From positions 160,001 through 224,000 of the forward strand of contig AE017150.2 in the NCBI GenBank assembly GCA_000002445.1: DNA of 64,000 nt, read 5' to 3'. This document shows, piece by piece, positions 3 to 45,539 of the stretch; positions within the stretch are counted from its first letter, which is position 1, and each line of letters starts with the position of its first letter. The translations under genes and the position numbers were made by a program. The notes beneath the pieces were generated by a model. That model saw only the letters and a list, made by a program, of their open reading frames with translations, had not been told where the DNA came from and ran no database searches. The stretch comes from Trypanosoma brucei (taxonomy: Eukaryota).

Positions 3-3000
3 GATTCAGTTGGGACTGGTGGACCACTTGTAAAGGTCAGTCTTGATAACTGCGCAGGGTTTGGTGATATGACACTCTTATCCAGCATTGTTACACTCGA
101 GGAGCTGAATATTCAAAAATGTGCTGACATCATTAGTGGTGTGGGTAGCCTTGGTACACTACCGTACCTGCGTGTGCTTAACATAAAGGAGGCACACATC
201 TCGTCCCTTGACTTTACTGGTATTGGTGCCTCAAAATCCCTTTTACAGCTCAATATGGAGAGTATCACGGGACTGATTGATGTGGAAGCACTCGCCAACA
301 TTTTGACTCTGGAAAAACTAAGCCTTCACGGCTGCACGGGTATTGACGCAGGAATTGGATGTCTCGGAAACCTGCCACAGCTTAAAATGTTGGACCTGTC
401 TGGCACAAATACCGACAATGAGTCTCTCAGAAGTTTATGCCTATCGCAGACAGTGGTGTCCCTCAACCTTTCCCATTGTTGGAAAATGACAAATGTGTCC
501 CATATTTCAAGCCTCGAAGCATTGAATGAACTGAATCTGAGCAACTGTTTTGGAATAAATGCAGGATGGGAAGCAATTGAAAAACTTCAGCAGCTACATG
601 TGGCAATCCTCTCGAATACACATATTACTGATAGAAACATATCCCATTTCAGCAAGTGCAAAAACCTTGTTACGCTTGATCTTTCTTTCTGCAATAAGTT
701 ACTTGATGTTACAGCTCTCTCTAACATCACTACGCTTGAGGAGTTGAATCTTGATAGTTGTTCAAACATCAGAAAAGGGCTGAGCGTTCTTGGAGAGTTG
801 CCACGGCTTTGTGTGTTGAACATAAAGGGTGTACAGTTGGAAGACTCAGTTATTGTTTCACTAGGGAATGGTGGATCACTTGTAAAGGTCAGTCTTGATG
901 ACTGCGCAGGGTTTGGTGATGTCACGCCTCTCTCAAACCTTGTTACACTTGAAGAACTGAATCTCCACTACTGTGACAAAGTAACCTCTGGAATGGGAAC
1001 ACTGGGCAGGCTACCGCAGCTTCGTGTACTGGATTTGGGACGGACACAAGTTGATAATAATTCCCTTGAGAATATCTGCACAAGCTCAATCCCACTTGTG
1101 TCATTAAACCTTTCGCATTGCAAGAAAATAACATCTATTTCTTCAATCGCTTCCCTTACAGCATTGGAGGAACTCAACATTGACAACTCCTGTAATGTAA
1201 CATCCGGTTGGAATGTATTTGGTACACTTCATCAACTGCGTGTGGCCACACTGTCGAATACACGCATTAATGATGAAAACATACGGTACGTTAGCGAGTG
1301 CAAGTCTTTGAATACACTCAACCTTGCGTTTTGCAAAGATATAACAGACGTCACAGCACTTTCTAAAATTACTATGCTTGAGGAGCTGAACCTTGATTGC
1401 TGCCCCAACATCAGAAAAGGTATTGAAACTCTTGGAACGCTTCCCAAGGCAGGTATCCTAAGCATGAAGGAATGTTACATGGGAGACAGTGATGCGCAAC
1501 AATGTTCCATCCTTTGGAATAGTAAGTCACTTGTGAAACTGAATCTTGAGAGGTCAATGGGATTCATATCTGTGAAAGCTCTCTCTAACATTGCGACACT
1601 GGAGGAGTTAGTACTCGGTCATGCACGGAAAGTATGTTGTATACCGTCATTTTCCTGTCTACCGCGCCTTCGAGTACTGAATCTGAAATATACGGATTTC
1701 AATGATGATGTAACTAAAAATATTTCCGAATCGAAATCGCTGCAGTCACTCAACTTATCACATTGCAAATGGGTAACCGATATATCAGTATTATCTTCCT
1801 TATTGGCACTGGAGGAACTGAATGTTAACTGCTGCAACGGAATACGAAAAGGCTGGGAGTCGCTCGGAAAGCTGCCTCTACTACGTGTAGCAATTCTATC
1901 TGATACTAACATCACCGCTAAAGATATAGCTTGCCTTAGCAGTTGCAAAACGCTGGTGAAACTAAAGTTTTTTCGGTGTGAGAAGTTGTCAGATGTCACG
2001 GTGGTGTATGAGATTCAATCACTGGAGGAACTGATAGTTAGGAGCTGTTCAGACGGCCTCAAGGGACTGAATGCCCTTGGTACACTGCCACGGTTGCGTT
2101 TTTTGCTTCTGCGAAATGTGAGAGGTAGTGATATATCTGTTGAATCTATTGGGACGAGCAAATCTCTCGTGAGGCTTCATATTGAAATGCGCGAGGACTT
2201 AACAGACACAACACCCCTCTCCAACATCACGTCCCTTGAGGAATTATCATTGCGTGAATGCGGTGATAACCTGGGAGGAGTCGGGACACTTGAGAAACTG
2301 CCACGGCTTAAATCGCTGGATCTCGGTTTATCTGACATTAGCAATAGCACACTTAATTATATTTTTCTGTCTCGATCCATTACGTCACTCAACCTAGACT
2401 CCAGTTGGGAACTAACAGATATATCTCATATATCAAATCTTACGGCACTGGAGGAATTGAATCTGGGAGGATGTTACTACATAACTTCAGGCTGGAAAGC
2501 ACTTAGCGAATTACCACGACTTCGTGTGCTCAACTTGGAATCCACCAGAGTTACGACCCGTTACGATGGATACTATATCAGCAGATGCAAATCCCTCGTC
2601 ACACTCAACCTTGAATTGTGTGATATGACCGATGCTTCATACATCGCTAATATCAAGACACTGGAAGAGTTGCATATAGGGAAATGCAAAGAGCTAACGC
2701 AGGGGTTTAGTGCACTTTTCACTCTTCCGCGGTTGCGCATTCTTAACTTGATTTGTTCTCTTATTACAGATGAAGACCTCAGGGAAATTCAACCACCCCA
2801 TACCATTGAGGAGCTCAATCTTTCTTATTGTGTGGAGCTCAATGATATTACACCACTTGGGAGAATAAAATCAATTAAAAAATTGCATCTCCGTCAGAGC
2901 CATGATGCCAGAAGGTCCACAGAAGGATTCAGAAGTCTTTTGGAGCTGCCGTGCCTTTCTTGGGTGGATCTCAAAAATGCTTCTGTCAGTTCTGATATCC

Positions 3001-3038
3001 TGCGTGAACTGGGAAAAAGGAGGGTACATATATATTAA
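3..3038 (+). CDS. Leucine-rich repeat protein (LRRP, ESAG8-like LRR family), 5'-partial. The reading frame is open from the first base of the window, and the ORF-track start at 69 is an internal Met.
   Basis: The ORF is 989 aa long. It consists almost entirely of roughly 24-25-aa cysteine-containing LRR units (LxxLxLSxCxxITDVSxLSxLxxLEELNLxxCxxIxxGxxxLGxLPxLRVL) typical of the T. brucei LRRP/ESAG8 type. Positions 3-68 are in frame with no stop codon and repeat the LRR unit seen at 840-930. The stop codon TAA is at 3036-3038. Confidence 0.8.
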   Translation, partial: DSVGTGGPLVKVSLDNCAGFGDMTLLSSIVTLEELNIQKCADIISGVGSLGTLPYLRVLNIKEAHISSLDFTGIGASKSLLQLNMESITGLIDVEALANILTLEKLSLHGCTGIDAGIGCLGNLPQLKMLDLSGTNTDNESLRSLCLSQTVVSLNLSHCWKMTNVSHISSLEALNELNLSNCFGINAGWEAIEKLQQLHVAILSNTHITDRNISHFSKCKNLVTLDLSFCNKLLDVTALSNITTLEELNLDSCSNIRKGLSVLGELPRLCVLNIKGVQLEDSVIVSLGNGGSLVKVSLDDCAGFGDVTPLSNLVTLEELNLHYCDKVTSGMGTLGRLPQLRVLDLGRTQVDNNSLENICTSSIPLVSLNLSHCKKITSISSIASLTALEELNIDNSCNVTSGWNVFGTLHQLRVATLSNTRINDENIRYVSECKSLNTLNLAFCKDITDVTALSKITMLEELNLDCCPNIRKGIETLGTLPKAGILSMKECYMGDSDAQQCSILWNSKSLVKLNLERSMGFISVKALSNIATLEELVLGHARKVCCIPSFSCLPRLRVLNLKYTDFNDDVTKNISESKSLQSLNLSHCKWVTDISVLSSLLALEELNVNCCNGIRKGWESLGKLPLLRVAILSDTNITAKDIACLSSCKTLVKLKFFRCEKLSDVTVVYEIQSLEELIVRSCSDGLKGLNALGTLPRLRFLLLRNVRGSDISVESIGTSKSLVRLHIEMREDLTDTTPLSNITSLEELSLRECGDNLGGVGTLEKLPRLKSLDLGLSDISNSTLNYIFLSRSITSLNLDSSWELTDISHISNLTALEELNLGGCYYITSGWKALSELPRLRVLNLESTRVTTRYDGYYISRCKSLVTLNLELCDMTDASYIANIKTLEELHIGKCKELTQGFSALFTLPRLRILNLICSLITDEDLREIQPPHTIEELNLSYCVELNDITPLGRIKSIKKLHLRQSHDARRSTEGFRSLLELPCLSWVDLKNASVSSDILRELGKRRVHIY

Positions 3039-7774: not shown

Positions 7775-8340
7775 ATTCTGGGAGAAAAGCGTCTGGGGGG
7801 ACGTGAAGCAAGAGTTGATAATGTTTTCAGTTTATATGGCTCCGTATGCAATGCAAAGTGAAGTCACATTATAATGGACAACGAAACTCAACTGCTGTGG
7901 AGGATGGTTGTTGATGGAACGCGTAGTGGCAATGTAATGTGGAAGGATGAAGAACTTAATGTTGTCCCTGAAATTGAGGAAGCTGTTGAGAAGAAACCAG
8001 AACGCAGGGAAGAAGTTGAAGCAATGGTTCTAACATCTCAAATGGGGTGATAATAAGCCAAGTTTGCCGGGGTGAGTAACAAAAACATATTCATCCATAG
8101 AGAAGAGCTCCGCGTATGGAATGTTGTAAGGAATGGAATTGAATTATGGCGTACACAGCGTGCTTTACCGGAATGTCTTTATTTTCCACGATCATACGCT
8201 GTCATTGTTAACCATGGGATTGGAAAATCTCAGAATTTGGGCTCTTTTATCCTCTACAAGTTATTGCATTGTGATGCGGAAGAGTTGCCTATTGTTGCGT
8301 ATTTCTGCGGCATGGCAGTGTTAATATTTGAAACCAACTG
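7775..8340 (+). pseudogene. RHS (retrotransposon hot spot protein) fragment on the plus strand. It is truncated, with internal stop codons and a frameshift.
   Basis: The translation (GEKRLGGREARVDNVFSLYGSVCNAK*SHIIMDNETQLLWRMVVDG..MWKDEELNVVPEIEEAVEKKPER..IHREELRVWNVVRNGIELWRTQR..NHGIGKSQNLGSFILYKLLHCDAEELPIVAYF) aligns to residues about 40-230 of the intact minus-strand RHS at 19639-21663. It contains in-frame stops and a frame change near 8050-8075. Confidence 0.7.
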
Positions 8341-14884: not shown

Positions 14885-17800
14885 CTATGCATTGTTACCA
14901 CCTCTATTGTTAACTCCGTTGTTATTGTTACCTTTTACTTGCAATTCAACGTATAGTGCAGTAATGTGGTTACTAAGAGAGACCGCGAACTGACGCACTT
15001 CCTGTTCACAAAACCTTTCCTCAACCTTATTATTTTGTCCTCCGTCTTCGATTGTCCCCTCACAACATTGTGGCTTTGTAATTTTTTCGCTGTCAACCCT
15101 TTGAACATAGATTATTTCCCATACCATCCCGCGTGAAAAATTGTCCCAGCGTCTAAAGTAACTTTGCAAACACCTTTTCATCTTAAATAACCCACCGGTG
15201 CTGCAAGGATGACTACCGGAAATTGTGTACTGCAGTCCCACAAAAGTCTTCGGATTCTCAACAAAAAAGAACGCATCAACAACCGGGAAACTCCTTGATT
15301 GCGGCTTGTACAATTTCATATATTGAATTTCAGCTCCAGCTACAATTGGAACATCCTCAGGAACCACAATCAAAGGATTCGTGAGTCTTGGACCTTGCAG
15401 CACCTGCAGCACACTTTGTTGGATTTGATCCCCAGCAAATGAAAGGCCCTGTAACTCCCTTGCCAACTCAGTTAGTGTATTCTCATGTGACAATGCTTCA
15501 ATGCCACTCTTCTCAAACAGATGACCAACAATAGCGCAGTTAGACAGCAGAGCAGATATTGCAGCATATTTATTCAGTAACCAAGGCCTCAGAAAGTCTA
15601 AAATAACTTGCCCCGTGTAAGATGAAAGCGGTGTGCAGAGATACGAATCACACAGAAGATTCCCTTTCTTCACTCGAACAACCCTCACTAACCTGTGTGA
15701 TGCTTTGCGTGTTTGCCAGGTAGCTGCGTTTTGGAAAATTTTTGCGTAGCTTTCCTTCTTTACATCACTCATTTCGTTAATGGCTTCCTCGATTAGATCA
15801 CACTGCCTGGTGAACGACGCCGAATCAACAATGTGACGAAGCAGTGGGCCAACGATAGGAATGCGATCTTGAATTTCTTGCCATTCACTTTCAATTTTCT
15901 CCTTCGCATCTGAAGGATTCCAACCGTAAGCAGGAGCAATTTTCCCCCACCTCGATATGTGTATGACTTCCAAATCCTTCAATGTATCACAGTTAATGTA
16001 AAAATGTAGGGCTTTGTTTTGCTTGGACCATCCATGGAATTGTCTAACGTTTGGAGAGCTCAAGGCAATACCAGCGAAATCACCAGGTGGTTTCGTCGGA
16101 GCAGGATGATTCTTGTCCACGTCAAATATAACGTATCCCTTAATATTCTCTGCGCCACATGAATCTCTGACTATTTGGCCAATAAGCGTTGAGGCATCAT
16201 CATAATTACTGTAAAACGTAACATATCCTGCTCGATCGCCTTTGGGTTTACGAAACACATACGCCTTACCACTCACAACGTACATGATAATCTAAAGCTG
16301 ACTCGATTCATAATGCAGTAGTTTGTATAACAGTATTATTTTTTTTGGAATTTTCTTCGTGCCTTCGTGAGAGTTTCTCCCAACTGGCGGGGCCATCAGC
16401 CATCACCGTAGAGCCCTGAGATGCTATCGGTCTGGCGACTGTGGCAGAGTCTCCCTTTTTCATTCATCCTAACACACCCTCTATAATTTTTGTTGTATTT
16501 CCGCATATGAACGGAATACAGCAGATGGGGCGAGAAGCCCCCCTCACCCCGGACTCTCCAAAAGATGTCAATTAGCAATCCTTTTGTTTTGATTTTTGTT
16601 ATTCGTTTATTATTCTCTCCCCCTCTTTCTGTTTCTGTTGCTTGTTGATTGCATACCCCCTCTGTCTCTAAGGGTGTCTGGACTATTCCTGCGTCCTGTG
16701 CTTTTCCTGCTAGCTCCACACTCGGCAATAAGGGGGGAAGTTGCAGAAGGGAGAGTGGGTTGTATGACTGTTACCTTAGGTGAGGACTTCACCTGCGGCC
16801 GGCTCCGTTCAACCGCAATGAGAAATTGCGCCAGCATTTAAGAGAAACATACATGCTGCACACACTCACCTTCTACCGCAAACCTGACACGTAACTCCTT
16901 CAAACCTGGACAGCTCATCAAGTGCAGCGACGTTTCTTCGCAGTCGCCGCGTTGGCTGGTAACAGCGCGCTCTACCTTCATACCGTTCATCTTCTTTTGA
17001 TGGAGGGTGAGGCCAGTTTTGCTAGCACACTGCCTTCCGCATGTCGGGCACACCAACATGGATGTGTTTTTATGCGGGGAATCAGTGGCACACAATTTTG
17101 TGCTTTTGCTGCATTTAAGCTCGACTCCCTCACCTTTGTGGAAAGCCTTACAGTGTCGGATGAGGGAGTCCCTGCAACTGAGCACTTTTTGGCACACACC
17201 ACACTGCACCCCGCCCTTCCCCGGGACGTCAACGTTTTCCTCACGGGCACGCTTACGAGGGAATTGCACCAACACCACGGTACCGTCCTCCGTCACTATG
17301 CTTTTATGTTTGAATTTCTTGTGTAGTGACAGGGAAGAACGTGTACCGAAGCTCGCCTCGCACAGGTCACATTGAAACGGCAGCTTCCGTGTATCCTGAG
17401 AGGCTGGCGCTGCTGGGGCTTTACCATCTCCTTGCACTGAGTCCTCGTTCTCTCGCCCCCTTTTCACGCGGCAACTGCCGCTGCCTATGCCATGTATTGT
17501 TCTAAGGTGGTGTAGTAGTCTGCCTGGCACTGCGAATTTGGAGGCACAGATGGTACAATGAAGCACCTGCGGTCTCATCGGGACTCGTGTGCTCGATGGT
17601 AGGGGAACGATCGCCACCACTGGAGGGGGCTCCGGGGGGATATCCACTGCAGGTGTTGCATCGCCGTATTTGATCCTCCGGAGGGCATCAGCTCGCACAA
17701 AGCCATGTTTGTTTACCATATGCGTTACAGCACTCGAGCGGCATTGGTATGTGGCATCACATTCCGTACATTTGGTCGGTTCGGAGGTTCTCTGAACAGT

Positions 17801-18560
17801 GCGTGTCGCAACAGTTGGGACTGTTTGTATTGTTGGTCCTATCGCTGCATGTTGCGGGTTACACCATCGGCACTGTGGAGGCACACTCGGGTTGATCTTC
17901 CGCACCCTCTTGAATTGCATACTGCGGAATACTGAAAGAGTTATATGGCCAACCCTTCTGCGAGGTGAGCACAGCAATCTCTAAATTACCGTGACGAGGC
18001 AGTGGGTCGCACAAGTCAAAAGGCGTGTGACTGACATTCACCTCCTCTTCTGTCCACAACTCGGGTTTGCCGTCACAATTACCCACTACCTTCATGCCAA
18101 GAGGTAAATCATTGTGACCCGACTCCACATAACCCCATGTCGCATTGTATATGGAATCATATACTCCTTTCAGTTCTGCACCACCAGCTGTTTGGTCAGC
18201 TCGTTCCCTTGCCTCTTTGGCAGTATCCAATGCCGCATCCAGCATTGCTCTCGCCCTGGGACCAACAAATTCCCTTATTTGCGCTTTTGCCATCTCCTCC
18301 CATTGCTGCATGTCTTAAATTCTATTACGAGGCAGATCAATAACTGCCCTTGGTAATTGAAACTCATCAAGCCGCTGTATCCTGTATTTCTTCAAGAACA
18401 TTAGCATTAATATATTTTCCCGGATTCTGAACAAACAAAAACATGGCCACATTCTCTGTTTTATACGTGTTTGAGAAGTATTGATTCAAAATTTCATGCA
18501 GTTTCATTTCATCCAAGCTCGCATAATCTTCCAGCAGCACATCCTCAATAGAACTGTTAA
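14885..18560 (-). pseudogene. RHS pseudogene interrupted by an ingi 3' fragment. It is a composite of a C-terminal part (14885-16336), the ingi fragment (16339-about 17895) and an N-terminal part (about 17895-18560).
   Basis: The C-part is a 466-aa in-frame RHS C-terminal region (MYVVSGKAYVF...NRGGNNA). Upstream of it, the codons LILLYKLLHYESSQL abut the ingi tail. The N-part (ORF 17859-18311 plus frameshifted upstream sequence to about 18560) matches the RHS N-terminal region (KAQIREFVGP...GVYDSIYNATWGYVESGHNDLPLGMKVV...LEIAVLTSQKGWPYNSF). It is lost roughly 180 bp short of the GIGKS motif. Confidence 0.75.
16339..17895 (-). mobile_element. ingi non-LTR retroposon, 3' fragment of about 1.6 kb. 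It comprises the C-terminal C2H2 zinc-finger part of the ingi ORF, the 3' UTR and an A8 tail. The 5' part is absent.
   Basis: The 3' terminal sequence (ggaattttcttcgtgccttcgtgagagtttc...gatgctatcggtctggcgactgtggcagagtctccc) is the same as the 3' halves of the two RIME copies, and is followed by a T8 run on the plus strand (16339-16346). The minus-strand ORF 16838-17977 contains at least five C2H2 fingers (CTICASKF..HHLRTIH, CDLCEASF..HKKFKH, CGVCQKVL..HCKAFH, CPTCGRQC..HQKKMNG, CTECDATY..HMVNKH). The 5' boundary is approximate, within about 50 bp. Confidence 0.7.
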
Positions 18561-19638
18561 TTGATCAAGTTGGCCCTTTTTCGCCTCCACGCAGTCAATT
18601 CAAAAAATATATTGCCGCATGCAACCTATTACTATGGAAACGCCTTATTGAATTCCACACTTCTGAAAACTTGCCCCCTGATTCTTCACAAGCTTGCGAT
18701 AAAAGCATAAACAAAAATAGAATCAGAAACAGAGACAGAGACAGTTTACACTGTAGAAAAGGACACCACAGTGAGTCACTCATTCTAGGAAGATAATCAC
18801 AAAAGCAAACACCCTCAAAAAGACAGCTCAGCGCCATAAAGCAGAACCTACTTACTACTAATAAGGAGTTGTGCCCCTTCCCTGCCAGTAAAGACACAAC
18901 ATTCCCCAACAAACACAGTGGAAGATCACAAGACTTATGACCCCTCCATACTAACCTAAACAAGACAGCGTGAATCACAATTGCATGCAATGCGCTAAGA
19001 ACCCAAAACGGTTCCGCACATTTGCCTCTGAGGATCCCTACTCAATCGCACCCCTACGCGGGAATCAATATTCTGCCTGTCACAAAATAACACAGCGGAC
19101 AGCAGAAGGAAAGGGGGAAAATAAAGAAACCCATCACAACACATAAGGATTTTAATGGGAACTTAAAGGAAACCTTCTAGATGAGAATGCTAACACCCAT
19201 ACCACAACAGTGCTCACAATCCTCTTGTATATCAGTGTTTAATTAGTTTTTCACAAAATGATTTGATAATCGTAACGATTCAAGGAATAAAAAAATGTAA
19301 ATGATAAGACACGACGCAACAAGCTGCCACATTGCCATTAATGGATGTATGTAATACCATTGTTACTATCCATTTCATTGTGACAACACATGCAAAATAC
19401 AATCGATACCACGGATTTCGTACGCCTTCCGTCGTGCGGTGAATCGCAGAGTGGATGTAAACAGTTGCGAAAGGATTACACCAACGCAACTGCAAGTTCG
19501 TTATGCTGCCAGGAACCTGTCCAGGATATATGATGAGTGAACTCCATTACCCAGACAAAAAATGTGACGCCTCCTCTTGCCCTTTCATTCGTTCTTCACA
19601 GTGTTTACCTCGTTGTTGGCTTGCCTGAGGTTCGTCAA

Positions 19639-21663
19639 TTACCTTCGGCCCACAGCAGCCACCGCAAGCATTTTGGTAACTATGTTATCCTCATACTGCA
19701 CATGGTACTGCTGCACATTGTTCTTCCAGAATCCCTCCACAAACTGGTGACTGCGGTGCTTTGCCTTACCCTGCGTAATTTCACACTTCTGCTCAGACCT
19801 CATCGCTGTGGATTCGAAGTGCTGAACGTAAATGATTTCCCAGTGAAACATCTCAGTAATTTCCTTCAACTGTTCAACGGTAGCCTCATTCTGGTGACCT
19901 CCCCCCTCCGCACTTGGAAAGAGGGATTGTAACAAATGAATGAATTCGTCGGTTGCTGTGTCATGGCTGCTGGCAACAGTAAACTGCAACAACACAATAG
20001 TTTTCTTCCCTATGGTTCCTGAAGCCTGTGCAGCCTGCTTTTCATCAACAATAAAGAATGCATCCGCTACGGGGTAGTTGGGAATGCATGGCACATATAA
20101 TTCCACCGGAGCCCCCTTCGACTCAGCCCAGTTGATGTCACCTGACACTGTGTTTGGTCGACAAGCATTGAGGAGGTCATCCCTTACGTGTTGCAAAATG
20201 CTTTTGCGTGTCCTCGTGCGCCTGGCCCTTTCATTTGCTGGAAGTTTCGTTATTAGACTTACGAAGCAAGTTAACACTCTGGGGGAACACAAATATTTAA
20301 TTGCATTCTTCTCAAAATAATGCCCGATGACAGATGCGTCCCGCGTCATACCAGACACCAGTGCCCACTCCTCAGCAATGCCGGAAAACACTACATTCAA
20401 AATTCTTTTCTTTATAGATTCAGAGTGAGGTACGCATATGTATATCTCACTATTGTTTCTCCCACAGGCACGAACAATCTTCACGAGTTTGTGAGATGCG
20501 TCACTTTCTCTCCATCCGCCTTTGTTACCCACCACGCCAATATAGAGTTCACGTCGCTCATGGGATTTGATGGAATTTATTTCATTGTCTATGTCGTCCT
20601 CACGCGTGGCATGCTTTGCTTCATCGAACACATAACGAAGTGAAGGTCCAACATGCTCCACACGGTTCTCATACATGTTCCACTTTTCCCTCAACTCAAC
20701 AGGCGTGGCTTGAGGAAAAAGCTTGGGTCCCACACGTGAGAAGAAAGCCCGCATTTCACTCATTTCCCAGCAGTTAACAACAATACGTGCACATCTTTCC
20801 CTCTGCTGGAACCAGCTGTCAAAATTTCTTTCATTATGTGAACTGATCAAAATGCTTCCCCATTTTGGAGCCACATCTGCCGGTGGCTGCTCACCTTTGT
20901 TGACGAAGTCATAAATAATATAACCACGTGTATTAGATGATATATTCTTCATAAACGTTATAGCCGCTTCTTTACTGTACTCCCTAACTCTGCCAACGCC
21001 ACCACCACCTGATTTCTCAAATATATATGCGGCTACACCACGGAAGTACGCAACAACAGGTAACTCTTCCGCATCATAATGCAGTAACTTGTAGAGGATA
21101 AAAGAACCAAAATTCTGAGATTTTCCAATCCCCGGGTTACCAATGGCAAGGTATGATCGTGGAAAATAAAGACATCTTGGCATAACACGTTGTGTACGCC
21201 ATAATTCAATTCCACTCCTTACAACATTCCATACACGGAGCTCTTCTCTGCGAATGAATATGTCACTGTTACTTCCCCGGGCAAAGCCTGTATATGGCCA
21301 ACCCATTTCTGAGGTAAGAACCAACAGCTCAACTCCTTTAGTGCGTTCCGGCTTCTGTTCAAGAGCTTCCTCAATTTCAGGCACGACATTAACTTCCTCA
21401 TCCTTCCACATCAAACCCTCATTGGGCATTCCATCAACCAAGCTCATTCCCAATGTTTGAGTTCCATCGTCGATAATAATATGACTCAATTTCGCATCAT
21501 AAATGGTATCGTATAATTTCTCTTCGAGAGACTTGCCCTCTCCGGTTTCTGATGGGTTCTCGTTTTCTCGGCCGGCTTGTCTCTTCATCGGGCGGTACGC
21601 ACCATTCAACCATCCATTTAAAACATTCCGAGTATCTCCCACACTACCGCCGTTCTGATTCAT
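19639..21663 (-). CDS. RHS: Retrotransposon hot spot protein (RHS), intact 674-aa ORF. N-terminal type is MNQNGG and C-terminal type ends ...VAAVGRR.
   Basis: It is a full-length ORF with the GNPGIGKSQNFGSF P-loop followed by ILYKLLHYDAEELPVVAYF. It is about 95% identical to the 675-aa paralogue at 45540-47567. An upstream U-rich tract with AG on the transcribed strand is consistent with a trans-splice acceptor. Confidence 0.85.
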   Translation of the reverse strand: MNQNGGSVGDTRNVLNGWLNGAYRPMKRQAGRENENPSETGEGKSLEEKLYDTIYDAKLSHIIIDDGTQTLGMSLVDGMPNEGLMWKDEEVNVVPEIEEALEQKPERTKGVELLVLTSEMGWPYTGFARGSNSDIFIRREELRVWNVVRSGIELWRTQRVMPRCLYFPRSYLAIGNPGIGKSQNFGSFILYKLLHYDAEELPVVAYFRGVAAYIFEKSGGGGVGRVREYSKEAAITFMKNISSNTRGYIIYDFVNKGEQPPADVAPKWGSILISSHNERNFDSWFQQRERCARIVVNCWEMSEMRAFFSRVGPKLFPQATPVELREKWNMYENRVEHVGPSLRYVFDEAKHATREDDIDNEINSIKSHERRELYIGVVGNKGGWRESDASHKLVKIVRACGRNNSEIYICVPHSESIKKRILNVVFSGIAEEWALVSGMTRDASVIGHYFEKNAIKYLCSPRVLTCFVSLITKLPANERARRTRTRKSILQHVRDDLLNACRPNTVSGDINWAESKGAPVELYVPCIPNYPVADAFFIVDEKQAAQASGTIGKKTIVLLQFTVASSHDTATDEFIHLLQSLFPSAEGGGHQNEATVEQLKEITEMFHWEIIYVQHFESTAMRSEQKCEITQGKAKHRSHQFVEGFWKNNVQQYHVQYEDNIVTKMLAVAAVGRR

Positions 21664-24600
21664 TTCACTCTCCGAATAATAATCTTAACTGAGTGTGTTG
21701 TGTTATTTCCTTTCTTTGTAACATAAATAATAAAAAAAAATTAAGATGAGGGAATTTAAAATGGATACGCTTCTAAACCAAAGCAAATATACAATAAATG
21801 AATATCAGGAATTAATATGGCAGATGGAAACTATTTACTAAAATTGAGATTCAATACAAATCTTATCATGTGTTAAGAACTCACAGCAACTTAAGCACAA
21901 ATGAGGTATGACAGTATGAATAAACATTTCTGTTTGGAGGAAAACTCAAACAACAATTCCCATTCATAAAACACAATCATTTCAGAAAAAATAATATACT
22001 TAGATATATATAAGTATGTATTGAAAAGCAAAAAAAATAAATAAATGTGGCATTGCCATGAAAAACAGGAAATAATAGTTTTAGTGATAAGCTATGCAAA
22101 ACGTATACTCAGTTAAAGGTACTCATGTGCATAATGAAGGCGCTTCACATTAAGAAATAATACAAACAACTATCAGAATTTGCGTATAATCTCACACGAA
22201 CCGTCACTCGGAATGGCATTTTGTCATAACTTCCTAATGTGGAAAAACTACTTCTAATACATACTCTCACACTCCGAATCAGTACACAGTGTGCAAATGA
22301 AAGTACGAGGTATCAAAAAAAAAAAACAATAATAATCGCCGTAAAAAGTAAAACCAATGAAAATAAAATCTTATACATCAAAGAGGAAACTCTCACCTGA
22401 CGAACAAATGCTGCTCACTTTCTTTATTTAAGTGATCCTTTTTTTTTTTGCAGCCATGGAACCATGAATCTAAGAAATATATATGAAGGCACGAATGATA
22501 TTTGTTTTGCTTTGGTATTGGAGCATCTTGCCATGCGTCTGCTTTTGTGCCTTAGTGAACCTCAAAGAAACCAAAGGCTCACGGAAGGGAACAAATATAT
22601 TTGTGGGAATAATAATTCAATATTAGGCTTCTTTTGAGGAGTGTGCTGAGTGGAATAATGGTGAAAAAGAAGTATTGAAAATTTATGCCACATGGGCAAA
22701 TGCTTTACAATATTTTCTCGCTGTCTGAAAATATGAAATATAGGGAATATATAAGGAACCAGAAACATAGGGAATATATGAAGTATAAGGAAATATATCA
22801 AATATAAGAAAATATATGATATATTCTGAAGTGCCGGATGTGTTTGTGCGTGTCTTCGTATGTGTTCTCTGCTTTATATATCACTAAATATTTTACACAA
22901 TTCCTTTTACTTTGCGTATGCTAATCGCTTGTTTCTCCCTATATAAATTAGTGGAAATATCCATTAGAGAAATAATAATTTACTTTTTTTCTTTTCCCTT
23001 CTCTTCCTTTCCCGCTAATGTTTCACCGTCTATTTTCATTCCTTATAAATATTGTAAATTTCATTTTGTTACTGTAACTATTTCCAAAAAAAAGTGTAAG
23101 TAAGAAACTTTAGTATTACATATCATAATATCTCTAAACTCCTCTTTTGTCATGTTAAGCTACTAATATTTTTATTTCCCATTCATTTTATTCAGCAGAA
23201 CATACAAAACCCCTCAAAAGTCCTTCCTTGTTTTTTTTCCTCAACATCATAATATACCTTGTGGAATATACAAATATATAATAACCATAAATGTGTTATA
23301 CATCTTCACAACATCAGAAACTTCACAAAATAATTGTGTTCCTCAATAAGCAGTGGCTGTGTTTCCTTTTACTTTCTATCAGAGTCAAACTAATTAATTA
23401 ATTACTAATAACTTCCTCCAGATATATTGCTTCTATTTTCTTGGATTATTCAGCAGCGTAACACCGGAGTCTTGAAATAAAGAGTCACAGTTCAAAGAAT
23501 ACAAAACAGTAAAAAAAATTAACAGAGACTCGCACCTTCACATTTGGTTGCATTTGGATACATCAAACGCATTTATTCGCCTCCTTGTGTTTTCTTTTTG
23601 GGGTGGGAGGAGTAAATGCAAAATGTATCAAGTTGACGAGTAGCAGAAATACAACACTTGATATAATTTCACTTACATATAAGCTTTCTTTTCCAACTTT
23701 ATTCCAATTCATAATATTTTGATAGCAATGTAATGCAGTATTCAGCCATAAACATTTTAACCATAAATATAGTAACTAATGTGTGAATGGTAACCCATGG
23801 CGATACATTCCATATGGAACAATACCACATTGTTAAATATACGCATGGAATTAAAACTATAGCACTAAATTGAAAATGAAAAAATAAAAGAGAGAAAGAT
23901 ATGAATTATCAAGAAAGGCATATTCTTCACTAACATGCACTTGTTTCAATATAATCATAATTTGAAGTTACGCTAAATGATAAGTGACCCAATATTCTGA
24001 AATGACACAATAACAATGATTCCATTATAGCAACTGTAAAATAATGATATGCAATAAAATAAATGATAAAAATAAATTAAAATACAGCAAGCAGTGCAGA
24101 ATATATTCTATTGCTATATATAAACATTTGCAAACAGATGAATACCTTTACTCATTGGAAGAAAATAATTAAATTCAAACTTCCTATGATTCTGCCAGTG
24201 TTTGTCGGCTACATGTGGGACTCAAAAAAAACAAAAAGTTTATTTTAAATAAACATGAAGAAAAGAAAAACTTCGCATGAAACCATAAGGGTATCCGTGT
24301 GAGTTATTCGCTACTGTCAAACATAGTTAACTTCACAACCCTCAAGAAAGAGAGAAATAATAAAAGTAAAAGTAAAATTTCAAGTAAAAAAATAAAATAA
24401 AAAGTAAGGAAATATAACATAATTATGCTTAACTAACTGTAATGTGAGGAATGTAAAAATAACAAAATGTTACTCACAATTTAATGTTATCAATGTTTTC
24501 CTTCACAAACGAAAACTGTCACATCTCAATGTGTTCTTTCAAATTAATGTAACGGAACCAGATATGTTTGTATAATATTCTACAATGTCATTTGGCATAT

Positions 24601-37049: not shown

Positions 37050-37061
37050 AATGAAGCAAAA
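37050..37061. repeat. RIME target-site duplication, left copy (AATGAAGCAAAA)
   Basis: It is an identical 12-mer to 37590-37601, and the two copies immediately flank the element. Confidence 0.9.
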
Positions 37062-37298
37062 TTTTTTTTAGAATTTTCTTCGTGCCTTCGTGAGAGTTTC
37101 CCCCCACTGGCGCGGCCATCAGCCATCACCGTAGAGCCCTGAGATGCTATCGGTCTGGCGACTGTGGCAGAGTCTCCCTTTTTTATTCATCCTAACACAC
37201 CCTCTACAATTTTTGTTGTATTTCCGCATATGAACGGAATACAGCAGATGGGGCGAGAAGCCTCCCACCCCGGACTCTCCAAAGGATGCCAATTAGCA

Positions 37299-37336
<38 letters not shown>

Positions 37337-37589
37337 CGGAGTTCCACATCACCGGACAGCAGCATCTTAGTGCGGATGATACTGCTGATGGCACGCTGGC
37401 ACGTGCCCAGGGACCGACAAATGAAAAACGGTGTCCCAGCAAGACGCTGCTGATCCCTGTGCTGTATGATGCCGTAGCCGGAGCACAGCAGTGTTCCCCA
37501 TGAAAGGAACGCTGCTGGCTCTTGGCTTCCCCCGATGATACGGGGTACTGGACCCTGGCACCACGTTGAGGTGGCCGGCATCGCCAGGG
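37062..37589 (-). mobile_element. RIME (the ingi-derived short non-LTR retroposon), a complete copy with an A8 tail and an expanded internal A34 tract
   Basis: The 5' end on the minus strand is CCCTGGCGATGCCGGCCACCTCAACGTGGTGCCAGGGTCCAGTACCCCGTATCATCGGGGGAAGCCAAGAGCCAGCAGCG..., which is the ingi/RIME 5' signature. The 3' half is identical to the ingi 3' end at 16347-16580. It terminates in T8 on the plus strand (37062-37069). Confidence 0.85.
37303..37336. repeat. T34 homopolymer (A34 on the element strand) internal to the RIME
   Basis: It is an uninterrupted run of 34 T. The equivalent position in the second RIME copy (about 43267-43273) has only T7. Confidence 0.95.
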
Positions 37590-37601
37590 AATGAAGCAAA
37601 A
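37590..37601. repeat. RIME target-site duplication, right copy (AATGAAGCAAAA)
   Basis: It is identical to 37050-37061. Confidence 0.9.
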
Positions 37602-41605: not shown

Positions 41606-44441
41606 TCAGTCAGCGGGGCCACCAGCAATAGCGTTTGGTTCATCCTGGGTGATCTCCTTAACAATATTCCCTTCCATCTTCACTTGAAACTGGTTGATTT
41701 TATTCCACAACTCTGTAGTATAATCGCCTCTGCCCCCAACTGGTTCGCACTTCTGCCTCACATCGATTGGCTTGCTGTCACTGTACTGTATGTAAATTAG
41801 CTCCCATTTCAAGTTTCTTGCGAGCTTATCCCATTCACGAAACAATTGTTTCATTGCCTTGATAAACTTATCTACCTTCGTTCGTGTCGTGTGATGCGTT
41901 GGTGCCACTGTCGGCTGGAGCAGAACAATTGTTGTTGCGGTGATCGCTCTTCCTTCTCTATCAACAGCTGGCTCAGTTACAAAGAAAAAGGCGTTCACAA
42001 CGGGGAAATTTCCCTGTACAGGTCGGTAAAGGCACCCAACCTCAATGTCTTGGCCTGTCGTTTCGGGGTTAAACTGACGAAGTGAAGTTGGAACACGTCC
42101 CACGGCATTACCACTTGCCAGAGCGGATACATTTGAATCCATTTCTTCTCCAACGCGAGGGAGATACCGCAGGTGCGTCACAATCGTCTGCACAACATTT
42201 CCCATCGTGAAGGCATATATGCCCACATTTTCAAATTCATCATTGGCCTGCTCTTCTTTCCCACGAAAAACCTTCCGAAGGTAATTGTCTCGCATACATG
42301 CTGTGTCCGCCCACACTCTCAATTTCTGCTCAATATAAACGGAAACAGCTCTGTTTCTGCATTCTTCTCATTCTCAGTTACAACCCGGACCAACTTAGCC
42401 AACCTGTATGTAGTCCCGTCCTCGCGCCATTCAACTCGACCATTCAGCACCTTCATGTAGTGTTCAGCATCGCCTCTACTGATTTCCTCCAGTGCCCCAT
42501 TTATTTCTCTAACATGGTCACAATAGGGTTTGTCACCTTCCAGTACGTGGCGGGGCAGTGGGCCCACCTTCTTAATCCATCCTAATATTTTCCCCCATTC
42601 GTTCTCAAGGTTTATGATGTGAGTTTCGGTGATTTTACTTGCCTCCAACTTTGACAGCCGCCTCCACGAAACCGCAGCCTTCAGTTCCACCTTTTCATAG
42701 CAATTGATGCAAAGGAACTCGTAACCCCGTGGTTCCTTCCACTCTCTGTAGTTATTTGGATCTGGAGATGTCAACACAATTACGGGCCACGCTCCCGGCA
42801 ATTTTGTCGGTATGGGTTCATCTCTCTCTTTCGAAAAGTCGTATATAATGTAACCAAGAAGCTTTTCATCAACGAAGGCCTTCACAGCATCCAATCCATC
42901 TACTTCCTCTTCATAGAATACAACCCTTCCCGGATGATCGTTTGTCGCCCTGAAGAAAATATATGCCTCGCCCTTCACAAAATAAGCGATATTCCGCAAC
43001 AGCTCCTAATCGTAATGCAGCAACCCTTGGAGCAGAAATTTTCTTCGTGCCTTCGTGAGAGTTTCTCCCCACTGGCGCGGCCATCAGCCATTACCGCAGA
43101 GCCCTTAGATGCTATCGGTCTGGCGACTGTGACAGAGTCTCCCTTTTTTATTCATCCTAACACACCCTCTATAATTTTTGTTGTAGCTCCGCAGTTGAAC
43201 GGAATACAGCAGATGGGGCGAGAAGCCTCCCACCCTGGGCTCTCCCAAAGATGTCAATTAGAAATCCTTTTTTTGGAGTTCCACATCACCGGACAGCAGC
43301 ATCTTAGTGCGGATGATACTGCTGATGGCACGCTGGCACGTGCCCAGGGACCGACAAATGAAAAACGGTGTCCCAGCAAGACGCTGCTGATCCCTGTGCT
43401 GTATGATGCCGTAGCCGGAGCACAGCAGTGTTCCCCATGAAAGGAACGCTGCTGGCTCTTGGCTTCCCCTGATGATACGGGGTACTGGACCCTGGCACCA
43501 CGTTAAGGCAGATTCATTCTTAGTGTAAGCTAAATACTCGCTGGCCGCGGGGATCGATTCCGGTACTATCTGCGACGACCAATCTACTTAACCACTAAAC
43601 CAGCGTAAGCCGAATATAATAGCCAGCACCAACTGATTTCCCAATACCTGCACTGCCGACGAGGACGCAAGGAATCTGTTTTTCGATCAGCCCTGACTCC
43701 AGCCACAAATCCAGCCTGTGCTTCACAAGATACCACACTCTCATTACCTCTCGACGAATGTACACATCCCGGTCAAACACGTAGTCTCCTGGTTCCTCCG
43801 CATCCTCTTGAATTGCATGTTCCGGAATGCTGAAAGAGTTATATGGCCAACTCTTCTGCGAGGTGAGCACAGCAATCTCTAAATTACCGTGACGAGGCAG
43901 TGGGTCGCACAAGTCATAAGGCGTGTGACTGACATTCACCTCCTCTTCTGTCCACAACTCGGGCTCGCCGTCACTATTACCCACCACCTTCATGCCAAGA
44001 GGTAAATCATTGTGACCCGACTCTACATAACCCCACGTCGCATTATATATAGAATCATATACTCCTTCAAGGTTTACAGCACCAGCAGCTGTTTGGTCAG
44101 CTTGCTTTTCCTTGCTTCTTTGGAAATGCGCAGTGCACTGTCCAACTTCGCCGCTGCAGTGAGGCAACAAGTTCCCTTATTTGCGCTGTTGCCCTCTCTT
44201 CCCAGTGCTGCATGTCTTCAATTCTATTACTAGGAGGGTAAATAACTGCCCTCGGTAATTGAAACTCGTCAGTATCCTGTATATCCTCAAGAATCTCGGC
44301 ATCAACATTAATATATCTTCTGAGATTATTAACAAACACATCCATGGACACATTCTCTGTGTTATACGTGTTTGAGGAAAACTGATTCAAAAAGTCATGC
44401 AGTTTCATTTCACCCAAACTCGCATAATCTTCCAGCAGCAC
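41606..44441 (-). pseudogene. RHS pseudogene interrupted by a 5'-truncated RIME. It is a composite of a C-part (41606-43024, one frameshift near 42320, C-terminus ...AGGPAD), the RIME, a filler and an N-part (43595-44441).
   Basis: The C-part ORFs 42319-42999 and 41606-42322 align to RHS from LLQGLLHYD/AYFVKGEAYIF to the C-terminus. The N-part ORFs 43595-44170 and 44097-44441 align to the RHS N-terminus up to GIGKSVGAG. Confidence 0.8.
43025..43508 (-). mobile_element. RIME copy 2. It has no poly(A) tail, its 5' end is truncated by about 18 nt, and its internal A-tract is 7 nt.
   Basis: It is identical to the RIME at 37062-37589 apart from its ends. It is followed on the 5' side by about 85-110 bp of unassignable sequence (43509-about 43615) before RHS resumes. 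Confidence 0.8.
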
Positions 44442-45539
44442 ATTTTCAATAGAACTGTTAATTGATCAAGTTGGCCCTCTTCCTCCTCACGCAGTCTCTT
44501 CGAAAAATACAATGGCGCATGCAACCTATTACTATGGAAACGCCTTATTGAATTCCACACTTCTGAAAGCTTGCCCCCTGATTCCTCACAAGCTTGCGAT
44601 AAAAGCATAAACAAAAATAGAATCAGAAACAGAGACAGAGACAGTTTACACTGTAGAAAAGGACACCACAGTGAGTCACTCATTCTAGGAAGATAATCAC
44701 AAAAGCAAACACCCTCAAAAAGACAGCTCAGAGCCATAAAGCAGAACCTACTTACTACTAATAAGGAGTTGTGCCCCTTCCCTGCCAGTAAAGACACAAC
44801 ATTCCCCAACAAACACAGTGGAAGATCACAAGACTTATGACCCCTCCATACTAACCTAAACAAGACAGCGTGAATCACAATTGCATGCAATGCGCTAAGA
44901 ACTCGAAACGGTTCCGCACATTTGCCTCTGAGGATCCCTACTCAATCGCACCCCTACGCGGGAATCAATATTCTGCCTGTCACAAAATAACACAGCGGAC
45001 GGCAGAAGGAAAGGGGGAAAATAAAGAAAGCCATCACAACACATAAGGATTTTAATGGGAACTTACAGGAAACCTTCTAGATGAGAATGCTAACACCCAT
45101 ACAACAACAGTGCTCACAATCCTCTTGTATATCAGTGTTTAATTAGTGTTTCACAAAATGATTTGATAATCGTAACGATTCAAGGAATAAAAAAAATGTA
45201 AATGATAAGACACGACGCAACAAGCTGCCACATTGCCATTAATGGATGTATGTAATACCATTGTTACTATCCATTTCATTGTGACAACACACGCAAAATA
45301 CAATCGATACCACGGATTTCGTACGCCTTCCGTCGTGCGGTGAATCGCAGAGTGGATGTAAACAGTTGTGAAAGGATTACACCAACGCAACTGTAAGTTC
45401 GTTATGCTGCCAGAAGCCTGTCTAGGATATACGATGAGTGAACTTCATTACTCCAACACAAAATGTGACGCCTCCTCTTGCCCTTTCATTCGTTCTTCAC
45501 AGTGCTTACTTCATTGTTGGCTTGCCCGAGGTTCGCCAA

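What the first reader, a model, noticed from the sequence alone, without database searches (positions are those of the whole stretch)
16286..17977. A 1.6-kb ingi 3' fragment inserted at the identical RHS hotspot codon, with the ingi 5' portion and about 180 bp of RHS missing
The ingi tail (A8) abuts RHS codons ...GSF|LILLYKLLHY. This is the same site as both RIME insertions. On the 5' side the element ends after only the zinc-finger part of its ORF. The RHS N-part resumes about 60 codons too early, at about 17895, with no TSD. This looks like a 5'-truncated insertion followed by deletion or recombination, not a simple retroposition.
Basis: partly seen in the sequence, partly recalled or inferred. 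Interest (0 to 1): 0.5.

Follow-up and report, generated by a model that had tools for sequence, protein, structure and literature searches.

The report
Truncated ingi retroposon in RHS pseudogene
One gene of a Trypanosoma brucei-type RHS gene array is interrupted at the family's known hot spot by the last 1.56 kb of an ingi retroposon, and a single junction has removed the rest of the element and about 180 bp of the gene; this is an ordinary case of a well-described kind of pseudogene.

Summary
On the minus strand, 16347-17895 plus an A8 tail (16339-16346) is the 3' end of an ingi retroposon. Its last 268 nt are 92-97% identical to the 3' halves of the two RIME elements in the window. Upstream lie 428 in-frame codons with four C2H2 fingers. 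Their only specific relatives are NCBI 'Tbingi protein' entries from T. grayi and T. theileri. GC content is 52.3%, the published ingi value.

The tail abuts the RHS hot-spot codons in the same register as the intact RIME at 37062-37589, which has a perfect 12-bp target-site duplication (TSD). On the 5' side, RHS homology resumes at 17896. Missing are 176 nt of RHS (58 codons, including the P-loop), the 12-nt upstream TSD copy and about 3.7 kb of ingi.

One deletion or ectopic joining event after a canonical insertion explains both losses. A one-step abortive insertion with target deletion cannot be excluded. An 8-nt stretch at the junction (GCGGAAGA) may be microhomology, but no full-length T. 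brucei ingi sequence could be obtained to test this.

RHS pseudogenes carrying ingi/RIME at this site, often rearranged, are already described. Interest is low.

The parts
14885..16338 (-). RHS C-terminal part. Hot-spot codons IILLYKLLHYESSQL lie at 16338-16295. A nonsense TAG (Q in relatives) lies at 16294-16292. An open 466-aa frame runs from the ATG at 16285.
   Evidence: Pfam RHSP positions 34-311 of 312, E=9e-108. 70% identical to T. brucei TREU927 RHS proteins P0160/P0161 from their residue 196 onward. No nucleotide relative elsewhere in the window.
16339..16346 (-). Poly(A) tail of the ingi fragment (A8). It may extend as A8TAA to 16336.
   Evidence: Read directly. Aligned to RIME37's A8 tail.
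16347..16614 (-). ingi 3' non-coding region, the part shared with the RIME 3' half.
   Evidence: blastn 92.8% and 92.1% to 37061-37335 and 43037-43274. 96.6% and 92.5% in global alignment, with only 9 private differences.
16607..17895 (-). C-terminal 428 codons of the ingi ORF: the CRWCNP motif, four C2H2 fingers and the C-terminal tail. A premature TAA lies at 16840-16838 and the natural TAATAA at 16612-16607.
   Evidence: Translation. Pfam zf-C2H2_4. Homologues named 'Tbingi protein' from T. grayi and T. theileri. Collinear alignment that includes the stretch past the TAA. GC 52.3%.
17896..17903 (-). 5' junction zone GCGGAAGA. These are the last bases alignable to RHS. In the ingi frame they also read R-K-(I), as in the T. 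theileri Tbingi protein, so they are possible microhomology.
   Evidence: Target against paralogue alignment. P0018 reads 'LLRKIQTHIPSGCRWCNP' against the target's 'VRKINPSVPPQCRWCNP'. The microhomology is inference only.
17896..18311 (-). RHS N-terminal part (138 codons from the ATG at 18311), truncated before the P-loop. Its own frame runs into ingi sequence and stops at 17859-17861, the end of ORF 17859-18311.
   Evidence: Pfam RHS_N positions 1-85 of 127, E=3.5e-37. 90-91% nucleotide identity to 43794-44210 and beyond.
43606..43793 (-). Reference segment in the paralogous RHS pseudogene. It corresponds to what the target lacks: 176 nt (43793-43618) up to the hot-spot nick position, plus the 12-nt TSD-equivalent.
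37050..37601 (-). Comparison element: intact RIME (37062-37589) at the same hot spot, with a perfect 12-bp TSD TTTTGCTTCATT (37601-37590 and 37061-37050).
   Evidence: Read directly. Alignment.

Best explanation
This is an RHS (retrotransposon hot spot) pseudogene of a Trypanosoma brucei-group genome.

Step 1. An ingi non-LTR retroposon integrated by ordinary endonuclease-directed, target-primed reverse transcription at the family's fixed hot spot, a few codons after the P-loop. The evidence is the intact 3' junction: a canonical ingi 3' end, an A-tail, and target sequence starting in the same register as an intact RIME elsewhere in the array. This step is shown by the sequence.

Step 2. One later rearrangement joined a point inside the RHS N-terminal region to a point about 3.7 kb inside the element. 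That point lies just downstream of the RNase H region. The event removed the ingi 5' part, the upstream 12-bp TSD copy and 176 nt of RHS, including the P-loop. This step is inferred.

The rearrangement was either an intrachromosomal deletion or a one-sided ectopic repair or gene-conversion event that brought in the N-part block. That block is 91% identical to 43794-48734. The most likely joining route is microhomology-mediated end joining, the end-joining pathway documented in T. brucei. It may have used the GCGGAAGA stretch at 17903-17896.

The result is a dead gene. The RHS frame stops 12 codons into ingi sequence. The ingi remnant lacks the endonuclease, reverse transcriptase and RNase H regions and the 5' promoter signature, and it has one premature stop. 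The RHS C-part has its own nonsense codon.
For: Identity of the fragment as ingi:
- 3' region 92-97% identical to RIME 3' halves, with an A8 tail.
- 428-codon frame homologous to 'Tbingi protein' entries.
- The T. grayi homologue P0009 has the end of an RNase H domain immediately before the matching region. This places the breakpoint just after RNase H.
- GC 52.3% equals the published ingi value (PMC2323293).
- A published ingi length of 5.25 kb (PMC2323293) minus 1.56 kb leaves about 3.7 kb missing.

Hot-spot register: same as RIME37, which has a 12-bp TSD. A 12-bp TSD is the rule for Tbingi/TbRIME (PMC3820030).

A single junction accounts for both losses.

Rearrangement history in this array:
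- The target and the pseudogene at 41606-44200 share N-parts and 5 kb of upstream sequence at 91% identity.
- Their C-parts belong to different subfamilies. Against the same TREU927 protein P0160, the target C-part is 70% identical and the paralogue's is 30%.
- Chimeric RHS pseudogenes are the published pattern (Bringaud 2002, as summarised in PMC7563717).
- ingi/RIME-mediated rearrangements are reported in PMC2854126.

Repair pathways: T. brucei end joining is MMEJ with 5-20 bp microhomologies, and one-sided MMEJ gene conversion is documented (PMC3045614).
Against: - No full-length T. brucei ingi sequence could be obtained. Microhomology at the junction rests on two residues (R-K) shared with a T. 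theileri protein.
- Experimental MMEJ deletions averaged 284 bp (PMC3045614), far less than the roughly 3.9 kb required for a simple deletion.
- Nothing in the sequence dates the truncation relative to the insertion. A one-step abortive insertion gives the same end product.
- About half of T. cruzi L1Tc copies are 5'-truncated and about half of L1Tc/NARTc copies lack a TSD (PMC1874656, PMC5814959). Truncation at integration is therefore not rare in this clade.
Confidence: 0.6

Rival explanations
1. One-step event. During target-primed reverse transcription the cDNA was not completed (5' truncation at about ingi nt 3,700). Its end was joined, possibly through microhomology, to a second-strand break about 176 nt upstream of the first nick instead of 12 nt downstream. 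This produces a target-site deletion and no TSD, as described for a minority of mammalian L1 insertions.
For: The 3' junction is canonical and the 5' junction is a single clean join. In the sister element L1Tc, about 50% of copies are 5'-truncated, attributed to unfinished reverse transcription (PMC1874656). About half of L1Tc/NARTc copies lack TSDs (PMC5814959). The L1 analogy comes from general knowledge and was not tested here.
Against: No documented case of insertion-associated target deletion for ingi was found in the papers searched. The neighbouring pseudogenes show independent evidence of post-insertion rearrangement. Such rearrangement is sufficient on its own.
Confidence: 0.25
2. One reading: a 5'-truncated ingi inserted first, and a separate later deletion removed about 180 bp of RHS plus the TSD.
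For: The same structural facts.
Against: It needs two independent events whose endpoints coincide at one junction. The second deletion would have to end exactly at, or inside, the truncated 5' end. Nothing requires this.
Confidence: 0.08
3. The zinc-finger ORF belongs to an unrelated gene or to a degenerate ingi-related element (DIRE), or the junction is an assembly artefact in a repetitive array.
For: Generic C2H2 proteins dominate the hit list by score. RHS arrays are hard to assemble (PMC2854126).
Against: The collinear, single-stretch hits are Tbingi proteins, and they include regions outside the fingers. The ORF is contiguous with a near-consensus ingi/RIME 3' end. It has only one stop, no frameshift and ingi-like GC content, unlike a DIRE (48.7% GC, PMC2323293). 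A misassembly would be expected inside a long repeat, not at an 8-nt overlap.
Confidence: 0.04

Closest known systems
RHS pseudogenes of T. brucei carrying ingi/RIME at the conserved hot spot (Bringaud et al. 2002, Eukaryot Cell 1:137; summarised in PMC7563717)
   Same: The N-part has an RHS_N domain and the C-part an RHSP domain. The retroelement sits a few codons after the P-loop position, in the same register as other copies. There is no TSD, and there is evidence of chimerism in the array. The insertion truncates the RHS frame.
   Different: The element is only the last 1.56 kb of ingi. The P-loop and about 58 RHS codons upstream of the hot spot are deleted too. I could not read the original paper, which is not held. 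I therefore cannot say whether such 5'-deleted cases were listed there.
Tbingi, the autonomous 5.25-kb non-LTR retroposon of T. brucei, and its deletion derivative RIME
   Same: The 3' 268 nt are shared with RIME. It has an A-tail, a C-terminal C2H2 region, ingi-like GC content and the ingi insertion site.
   Different: It lacks the 5' 79-bp signature, the endonuclease, reverse transcriptase and RNase H regions, and the TSD. It has one premature stop codon.
MMEJ deletions and one-sided MMEJ gene conversion in T. brucei (Glover, Jun and Horn 2011, PMC3045614)
   Same: It is a clean two-partner junction with a candidate 5-8 nt overlap. The junction coincides with one end of a duplicated block at least 5 kb long.
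   Different: Any deletion here would be about 3.9 kb, against an experimental mean of 284 bp. The microhomology is unverified.
5'-truncated LINE insertions with target-site deletion (mammalian L1; 5'-truncated L1Tc in T. cruzi, PMC1874656)
   Same: It has an intact 3' end and tail, a truncated 5' end, a missing TSD and lost target DNA.
   Different: This is not demonstrated for ingi. Here it cannot be distinguished from post-insertion deletion.

Membership tests
Tbingi (ingi-clade non-LTR retroposon), 3' fragment | 3' terminal ~250-270 nt shared with RIME, ending in an A-rich tail | tested here: met
   92-97% identity to two RIME 3' halves, with an A8 tail.
Tbingi (ingi-clade non-LTR retroposon), 3' fragment | ORF C-terminal region homologous to ingi/L1Tc proteins, with CX2CX12HX3-5H fingers | tested here: met
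   Four fingers. Collinear homology to NCBI 'Tbingi protein' of T. grayi and T. theileri, E 1e-14 to 7e-16. The motif is described for L1Tc in PMC5814959.
Tbingi (ingi-clade non-LTR retroposon), 3' fragment | 5' 79-bp signature and the endonuclease, reverse transcriptase and RNase H domains | tested here: not met
   No match of 16615-19000 to the RIME 5' halves. Pfam finds only zf-C2H2. This is expected for a 5'-deleted copy: it is a fragment, not a complete member.
Tbingi (ingi-clade non-LTR retroposon), 3' fragment | 12-bp target-site duplication | tested here: not met
   No second copy of the post-tail sequence near the 5' junction. The rule is stated in PMC3820030.
Tbingi (ingi-clade non-LTR retroposon), 3' fragment | High nucleotide identity (~95%) to the T. 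brucei ingi consensus across the coding part | not testable with these tools
   No T. brucei ingi sequence is reachable: protein search empty, contig look-ups empty, metagenome hit a chance match.
RHS (retrotransposon hot spot) gene family, pseudogene | RHS_N and RHSP (P-loop) domains | tested here: met
   Pfam PF20445 E=3.5e-37 and PF07999 E=9e-108. 70% identity to TREU927 RHS proteins.
RHS (retrotransposon hot spot) gene family, pseudogene | ATP/GTP-binding motif a few codons upstream of the hot spot | tested here: not met
   The GxxGxGKS motif is found in 8 other copies in the window but not in this one. It lies within the deleted 176 nt.
RHS (retrotransposon hot spot) gene family, pseudogene | Retroelement at the conserved hot-spot position | tested here: met
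   The tail/target boundary is in register with RIME37.
MMEJ-type junction | 5-20 bp of identity between the two partners at the join | tested here: inconclusive
   The RHS side is known from the paralogue. The ingi side is inferred only from R-K-I in a T. theileri protein.

The most novel reading that the evidence does not exclude
The junction records a single ingi integration event that was 5'-truncated and deleted 176 nt of its target. This would be an L1-like, retrotransposition-associated genomic deletion in a trypanosome. It would show that ingi integration itself, and not only later recombination, erodes RHS genes.
Probability: 0.25. Interest if true: 0.3.

Novelty: already known. Interest (0 to 1): 0.1.

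Why it matters
It matters little beyond annotation. The locus should be labelled as an RHS pseudogene with a 5'-deleted ingi remnant, not as a zinc-finger gene. It is one more example of how the RHS arrays of T. brucei decay through retroposon insertion at a fixed site, followed by rearrangement. If the junction microhomology were confirmed, it would be a natural MMEJ scar consistent with the repair pathways shown experimentally in this organism.

Tried and rejected
1. The word-indexed protein search with the 379-aa ORF found nothing. T. brucei ingi C-terminal proteins are evidently not in that collection.

2. In the exhaustive representative search, the top hits by score are generic multi-finger C2H2 proteins with 8-18 matched stretches each. 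I treated these as uninformative. Only the single-stretch, collinear hits were used.

3. Three attempts to fetch T. brucei DNA carrying a full-length ingi all returned 'not on record'. The queries were exact protein look-ups of the 674-aa RHS and of P0160 and P0161.

4. An exact 20-mer from the CRWCNP region was scanned against metagenome and viral contigs. The single metagenome hit (L001) shares only 24 nt and is chance. There were no viral hits.

5. The founding RHS paper (PMC118050) is not held.

6. I tried to decide whether the N- and C-parts come from the same RHS subfamily. The N-part is 54-59% identical to several subfamilies, so this is not discriminating.

7. Rfam and ARAGORN on the window found nothing relevant.

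8. MAFFT and tblastn extended the Tbingi alignment into 17896-17956. I rejected this as spurious, because that stretch is 85-90% identical to RHS paralogues.

9. A literature search for the ingi ORF length (1657 aa) returned only unrelated papers. That number is not used as evidence.
Full report
**Context**

The window is a head-to-tail array of RHS (retrotransposon hot spot) genes on the minus strand. A leucine-rich-repeat protein gene lies at its low-coordinate end (Pfam).
- Eight RHS copies retain the P-loop motif G-x-x-G-I-G-K-S followed by the hot-spot codons.
- Six of those sites are empty. One holds an intact RIME (37062-37589). One holds a rearranged RIME (about 43037-43508).
- The finding concerns a ninth copy, 14885-18311, the last of the array.
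- Closest database proteins to its C-part are two RHS proteins of T. brucei brucei TREU927, at 70% identity. The sequence is therefore T. brucei-group RHS DNA, but this copy has no close annotated protein relative.

**What the 1.6-kb insert is**

Read on the minus strand, 16347-16614 matches the 3' halves of both RIMEs.
- blastn gives 92.8% over 277 nt (E=8e-115) and 92.1% over 240 nt.
- Global alignment gives 96.6% and 92.5%, with only 9 private differences.
- The region ends ...CACGAAGGCACGAAGAAAATTCC followed by A8 at 16339-16346, just as RIME37 ends ...AAAATTCT plus A8.

RIME is ingi with its central 4.7 kb deleted (PMC2323293). Homology to RIME should therefore stop where ingi-specific sequence begins. 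It stops at 16614, beside an A-rich stretch, as in the RIMEs.

Upstream of that point, 17895-16607 is one reading frame of 428 codons.
- A single internal TAA lies at 16840-16838.
- A terminal TAATAA lies at 16612-16607, exactly at the RIME boundary.
- The frame has a CRWCNP motif and four CX2CX12HX3-4H fingers. Pfam zf-C2H2_4 scores E=4.7e-9.

A full HMMER scan of 1.84 billion representatives returned many generic multi-finger proteins. The collinear single-stretch hits were P0009, P0018, P0007, P0008, P0013 and relatives (E 1e-13 to 7e-16, 34-52% identity).
- All but P0013 (an uncharacterized T. theileri protein) are named 'Tbingi protein' by NCBI, in T. grayi and T. theileri.
- P0009 begins with the end of an RNase H domain, followed by ...GWLLRVLQPTTPNTCRWCNP. 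The breakpoint in the target is therefore just downstream of RNase H.
- T. theileri P0007 aligns across the internal TAA (CFSKRLAKFFIAVERN against CFS*MLAQFLIAVERS). That stop is therefore a mutation of this copy and not the natural ORF end.

GC content of the fragment is 52.3%, against 39% for the window. This equals the published ingi figure of 52.3% (PMC2323293).

The fragment is 1,549 nt plus its tail. From the published length of 5.25 kb, about 3.7 kb of the 5' side is absent.

**The 3' junction**

RIME37 is a textbook insertion with the 12-bp TSD TTTTGCTTCATT on both sides (37601-37590 and 37061-37050). This agrees with the 12-bp rule for Tbingi/TbRIME (PMC3820030).

Its post-tail sequence and that of the target align without gaps.
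- The target reads A8-TAATACTGTTATACAAACTACTGCATTATGAA, that is (I)ILLYKLLHYE.
- TREU927 relatives read APFLLYKLLHYESSQLQ at this point.
- The insertion point is the same nucleotide if the tail is A8TAA, and otherwise 3 nt away.
- The ingi therefore entered by normal site-specific integration.

The RHS C-part has a further nonsense codon (TAG at 16294-16292, a Q in relatives). After that it is open for 466 codons.

**The 5' junction**

The N-part and everything upstream (17896-22824) is 91% identical to 43794-48734. This is a segmental duplication that includes the next RHS gene.
- Homology ends exactly at 17896.
- The target reads ...CAAGAGGGTGCGGAAGA|TCAACCCGAGTGTGCC.
- The paralogue reads ...CAAGAGGATGCGGAGGA|ACCAGGAGACTACGTG.
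- The paralogue then runs a further 176 nt (58 codons, PGDYVFDRD...GSAGIGKSVGAGY) to the hot-spot position.
- Measured against P0161, about 59 residues are missing.
- Pfam agrees: RHS_N positions 1-85 of 127 are present and RHSP starts at position 34.
- No copy of the post-tail 15-mer lies near the 5' junction, so there is no TSD.

Relative to a canonical insertion, the locus lacks about 3.7 kb of ingi, the 12-nt upstream TSD copy and 176 nt of RHS. All three losses meet at one junction.

**Mechanism**

A single junction is most simply one event. I favour a canonical insertion followed by one rearrangement, at about 0.6. There are two sub-versions.

- Intrachromosomal deletion of about 3.9 kb.
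- One-sided ectopic repair or gene conversion. In this version the N-part block, which is 91% identical to 43794-48734, was joined into a pre-existing ingi.

Support for the favoured explanation:
- T. brucei joins ends by MMEJ using 5-20 bp microhomologies. It also shows gene conversion with homologous recombination at one end and MMEJ at the other (PMC3045614).
- The array carries independent signs of rearrangement. The target and its paralogue share N-parts but have C-parts of different subfamilies: against the same TREU927 protein P0160, the target C-part is 70% identical and the paralogue's is 30%.
- The paralogue's RIME lacks a TSD, lacks poly(A), and has about 109 nt of foreign sequence in place of its first ~22 nt.
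- Chimeric RHS pseudogenes are the published pattern (PMC7563717, summarising Bringaud 2002).
- ingi/RIME-mediated rearrangements are noted in genome comparisons (PMC2854126).

A hint of microhomology:
- The last 8 RHS-alignable bases, GCGGAAGA, read in the ingi frame as R-K-(I).
- T. theileri Tbingi has LLRKI at exactly the same distance from CRWCNP.
- If T. brucei ingi has the same residues, the two partners shared 7-8 nt at the join.
- This is inference. No T. brucei ingi sequence could be retrieved.

The main rival, at about 0.25, is a one-step abortive integration with target-site deletion.
- About half of T. cruzi L1Tc copies are 5'-truncated (PMC1874656).
- About half of L1Tc/NARTc copies lack TSDs (PMC5814959).
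- This rival therefore cannot be dismissed, and it yields an identical end product.

Alternatives involving an unrelated gene, a DIRE or a misassembly are unlikely. The ORF is collinear with Tbingi proteins, nearly intact and contiguous with a near-consensus ingi 3' end.

**Comparison with what is known, and novelty**

RHS genes were named for this property: a large fraction are pseudogenes with ingi or RIME at one fixed in-frame position just after the nucleotide-binding motif, and many are chimeric (PMC7563717). The present locus is an instance of that class. Its one extra feature is a deletion that removed the 5' part of the element and the adjacent RHS segment.

It passes the tests for an RHS pseudogene and for an ingi 3' fragment. 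As expected for a remnant, it fails the tests for a complete ingi: there is no 5' signature, no enzymatic domains and no TSD. Nothing here departs from known biology.

**Verdict**

Interest is 0.1. Novelty is 'already known'.

Noticed in passing
window 43037-43617 (minus strand): The second RIME is not canonical. Its first ~22 nt are replaced by about 109 nt of sequence found nowhere else in the window (43509-43617...GGTTTAGTGGTTAAGTAGATTGGTCGTCGCAGATAGTACCGGAATCGATCCCCGCGGCCAGCGA...). It has no poly(A) tail and no TSD. The extra sequence looks vaguely tRNA-like, but ARAGORN and Rfam find nothing.
   Followed up: partly
window 37050-37601 (minus strand): An intact RIME with a perfect 12-bp TSD (TTTTGCTTCATT) and a 34-nt A-run (37303-37336) at the junction of its two halves. 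It looks like a recent, unrearranged insertion at the RHS hot spot.
   Followed up: partly
window 17896-24000 versus 43794-49841: A segmental duplication at about 91% identity with a spacing of about 25.9 kb. It carries an RHS pseudogene N-part plus a complete 674/675-aa RHS gene. One end of the duplicated block coincides exactly with the ingi 5' junction.
   Followed up: partly
window 41606-44200 versus 14885-18311: The two paralogous pseudogenes share N-parts at about 90% nucleotide identity. Their C-parts belong to different RHS subfamilies: against the same TREU927 protein P0160, the target C-part is 70% identical and the paralogue's is 30%. At least one pseudogene is a chimera joined at the retroelement. 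The paralogue's N-part also has a frameshift.
   Followed up: partly
window 7832-8331 (plus strand): An isolated RHS N-terminal fragment in the opposite orientation to the array. It is 78% identical in nucleotide sequence to 21017-21497.
   Followed up: no
window 69-3038 (plus strand): A 989-aa leucine-rich-repeat protein ORF flanks the low-coordinate end of the RHS array.
   Followed up: no
window 16292-16294 and 14885-16285 (minus strand): The RHS C-part has a single nonsense codon (TAG for Q) 15 codons after the hot spot and is otherwise an uninterrupted 466-codon frame. Its closest database proteins are only 70% identical (TREU927). This C-terminal type may lack an intact annotated representative.
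   Followed up: partly
window 37581-37589 and following (minus strand): In the intact RIME an ATG at element nt 9 opens a long frame (MPATSTWCQGPVPRII...), and the RHS frame reads straight into it (GSFLLHSLAMPATS...). Insertions at this hot spot are thus in frame with the element's own ORF.
   Followed up: no
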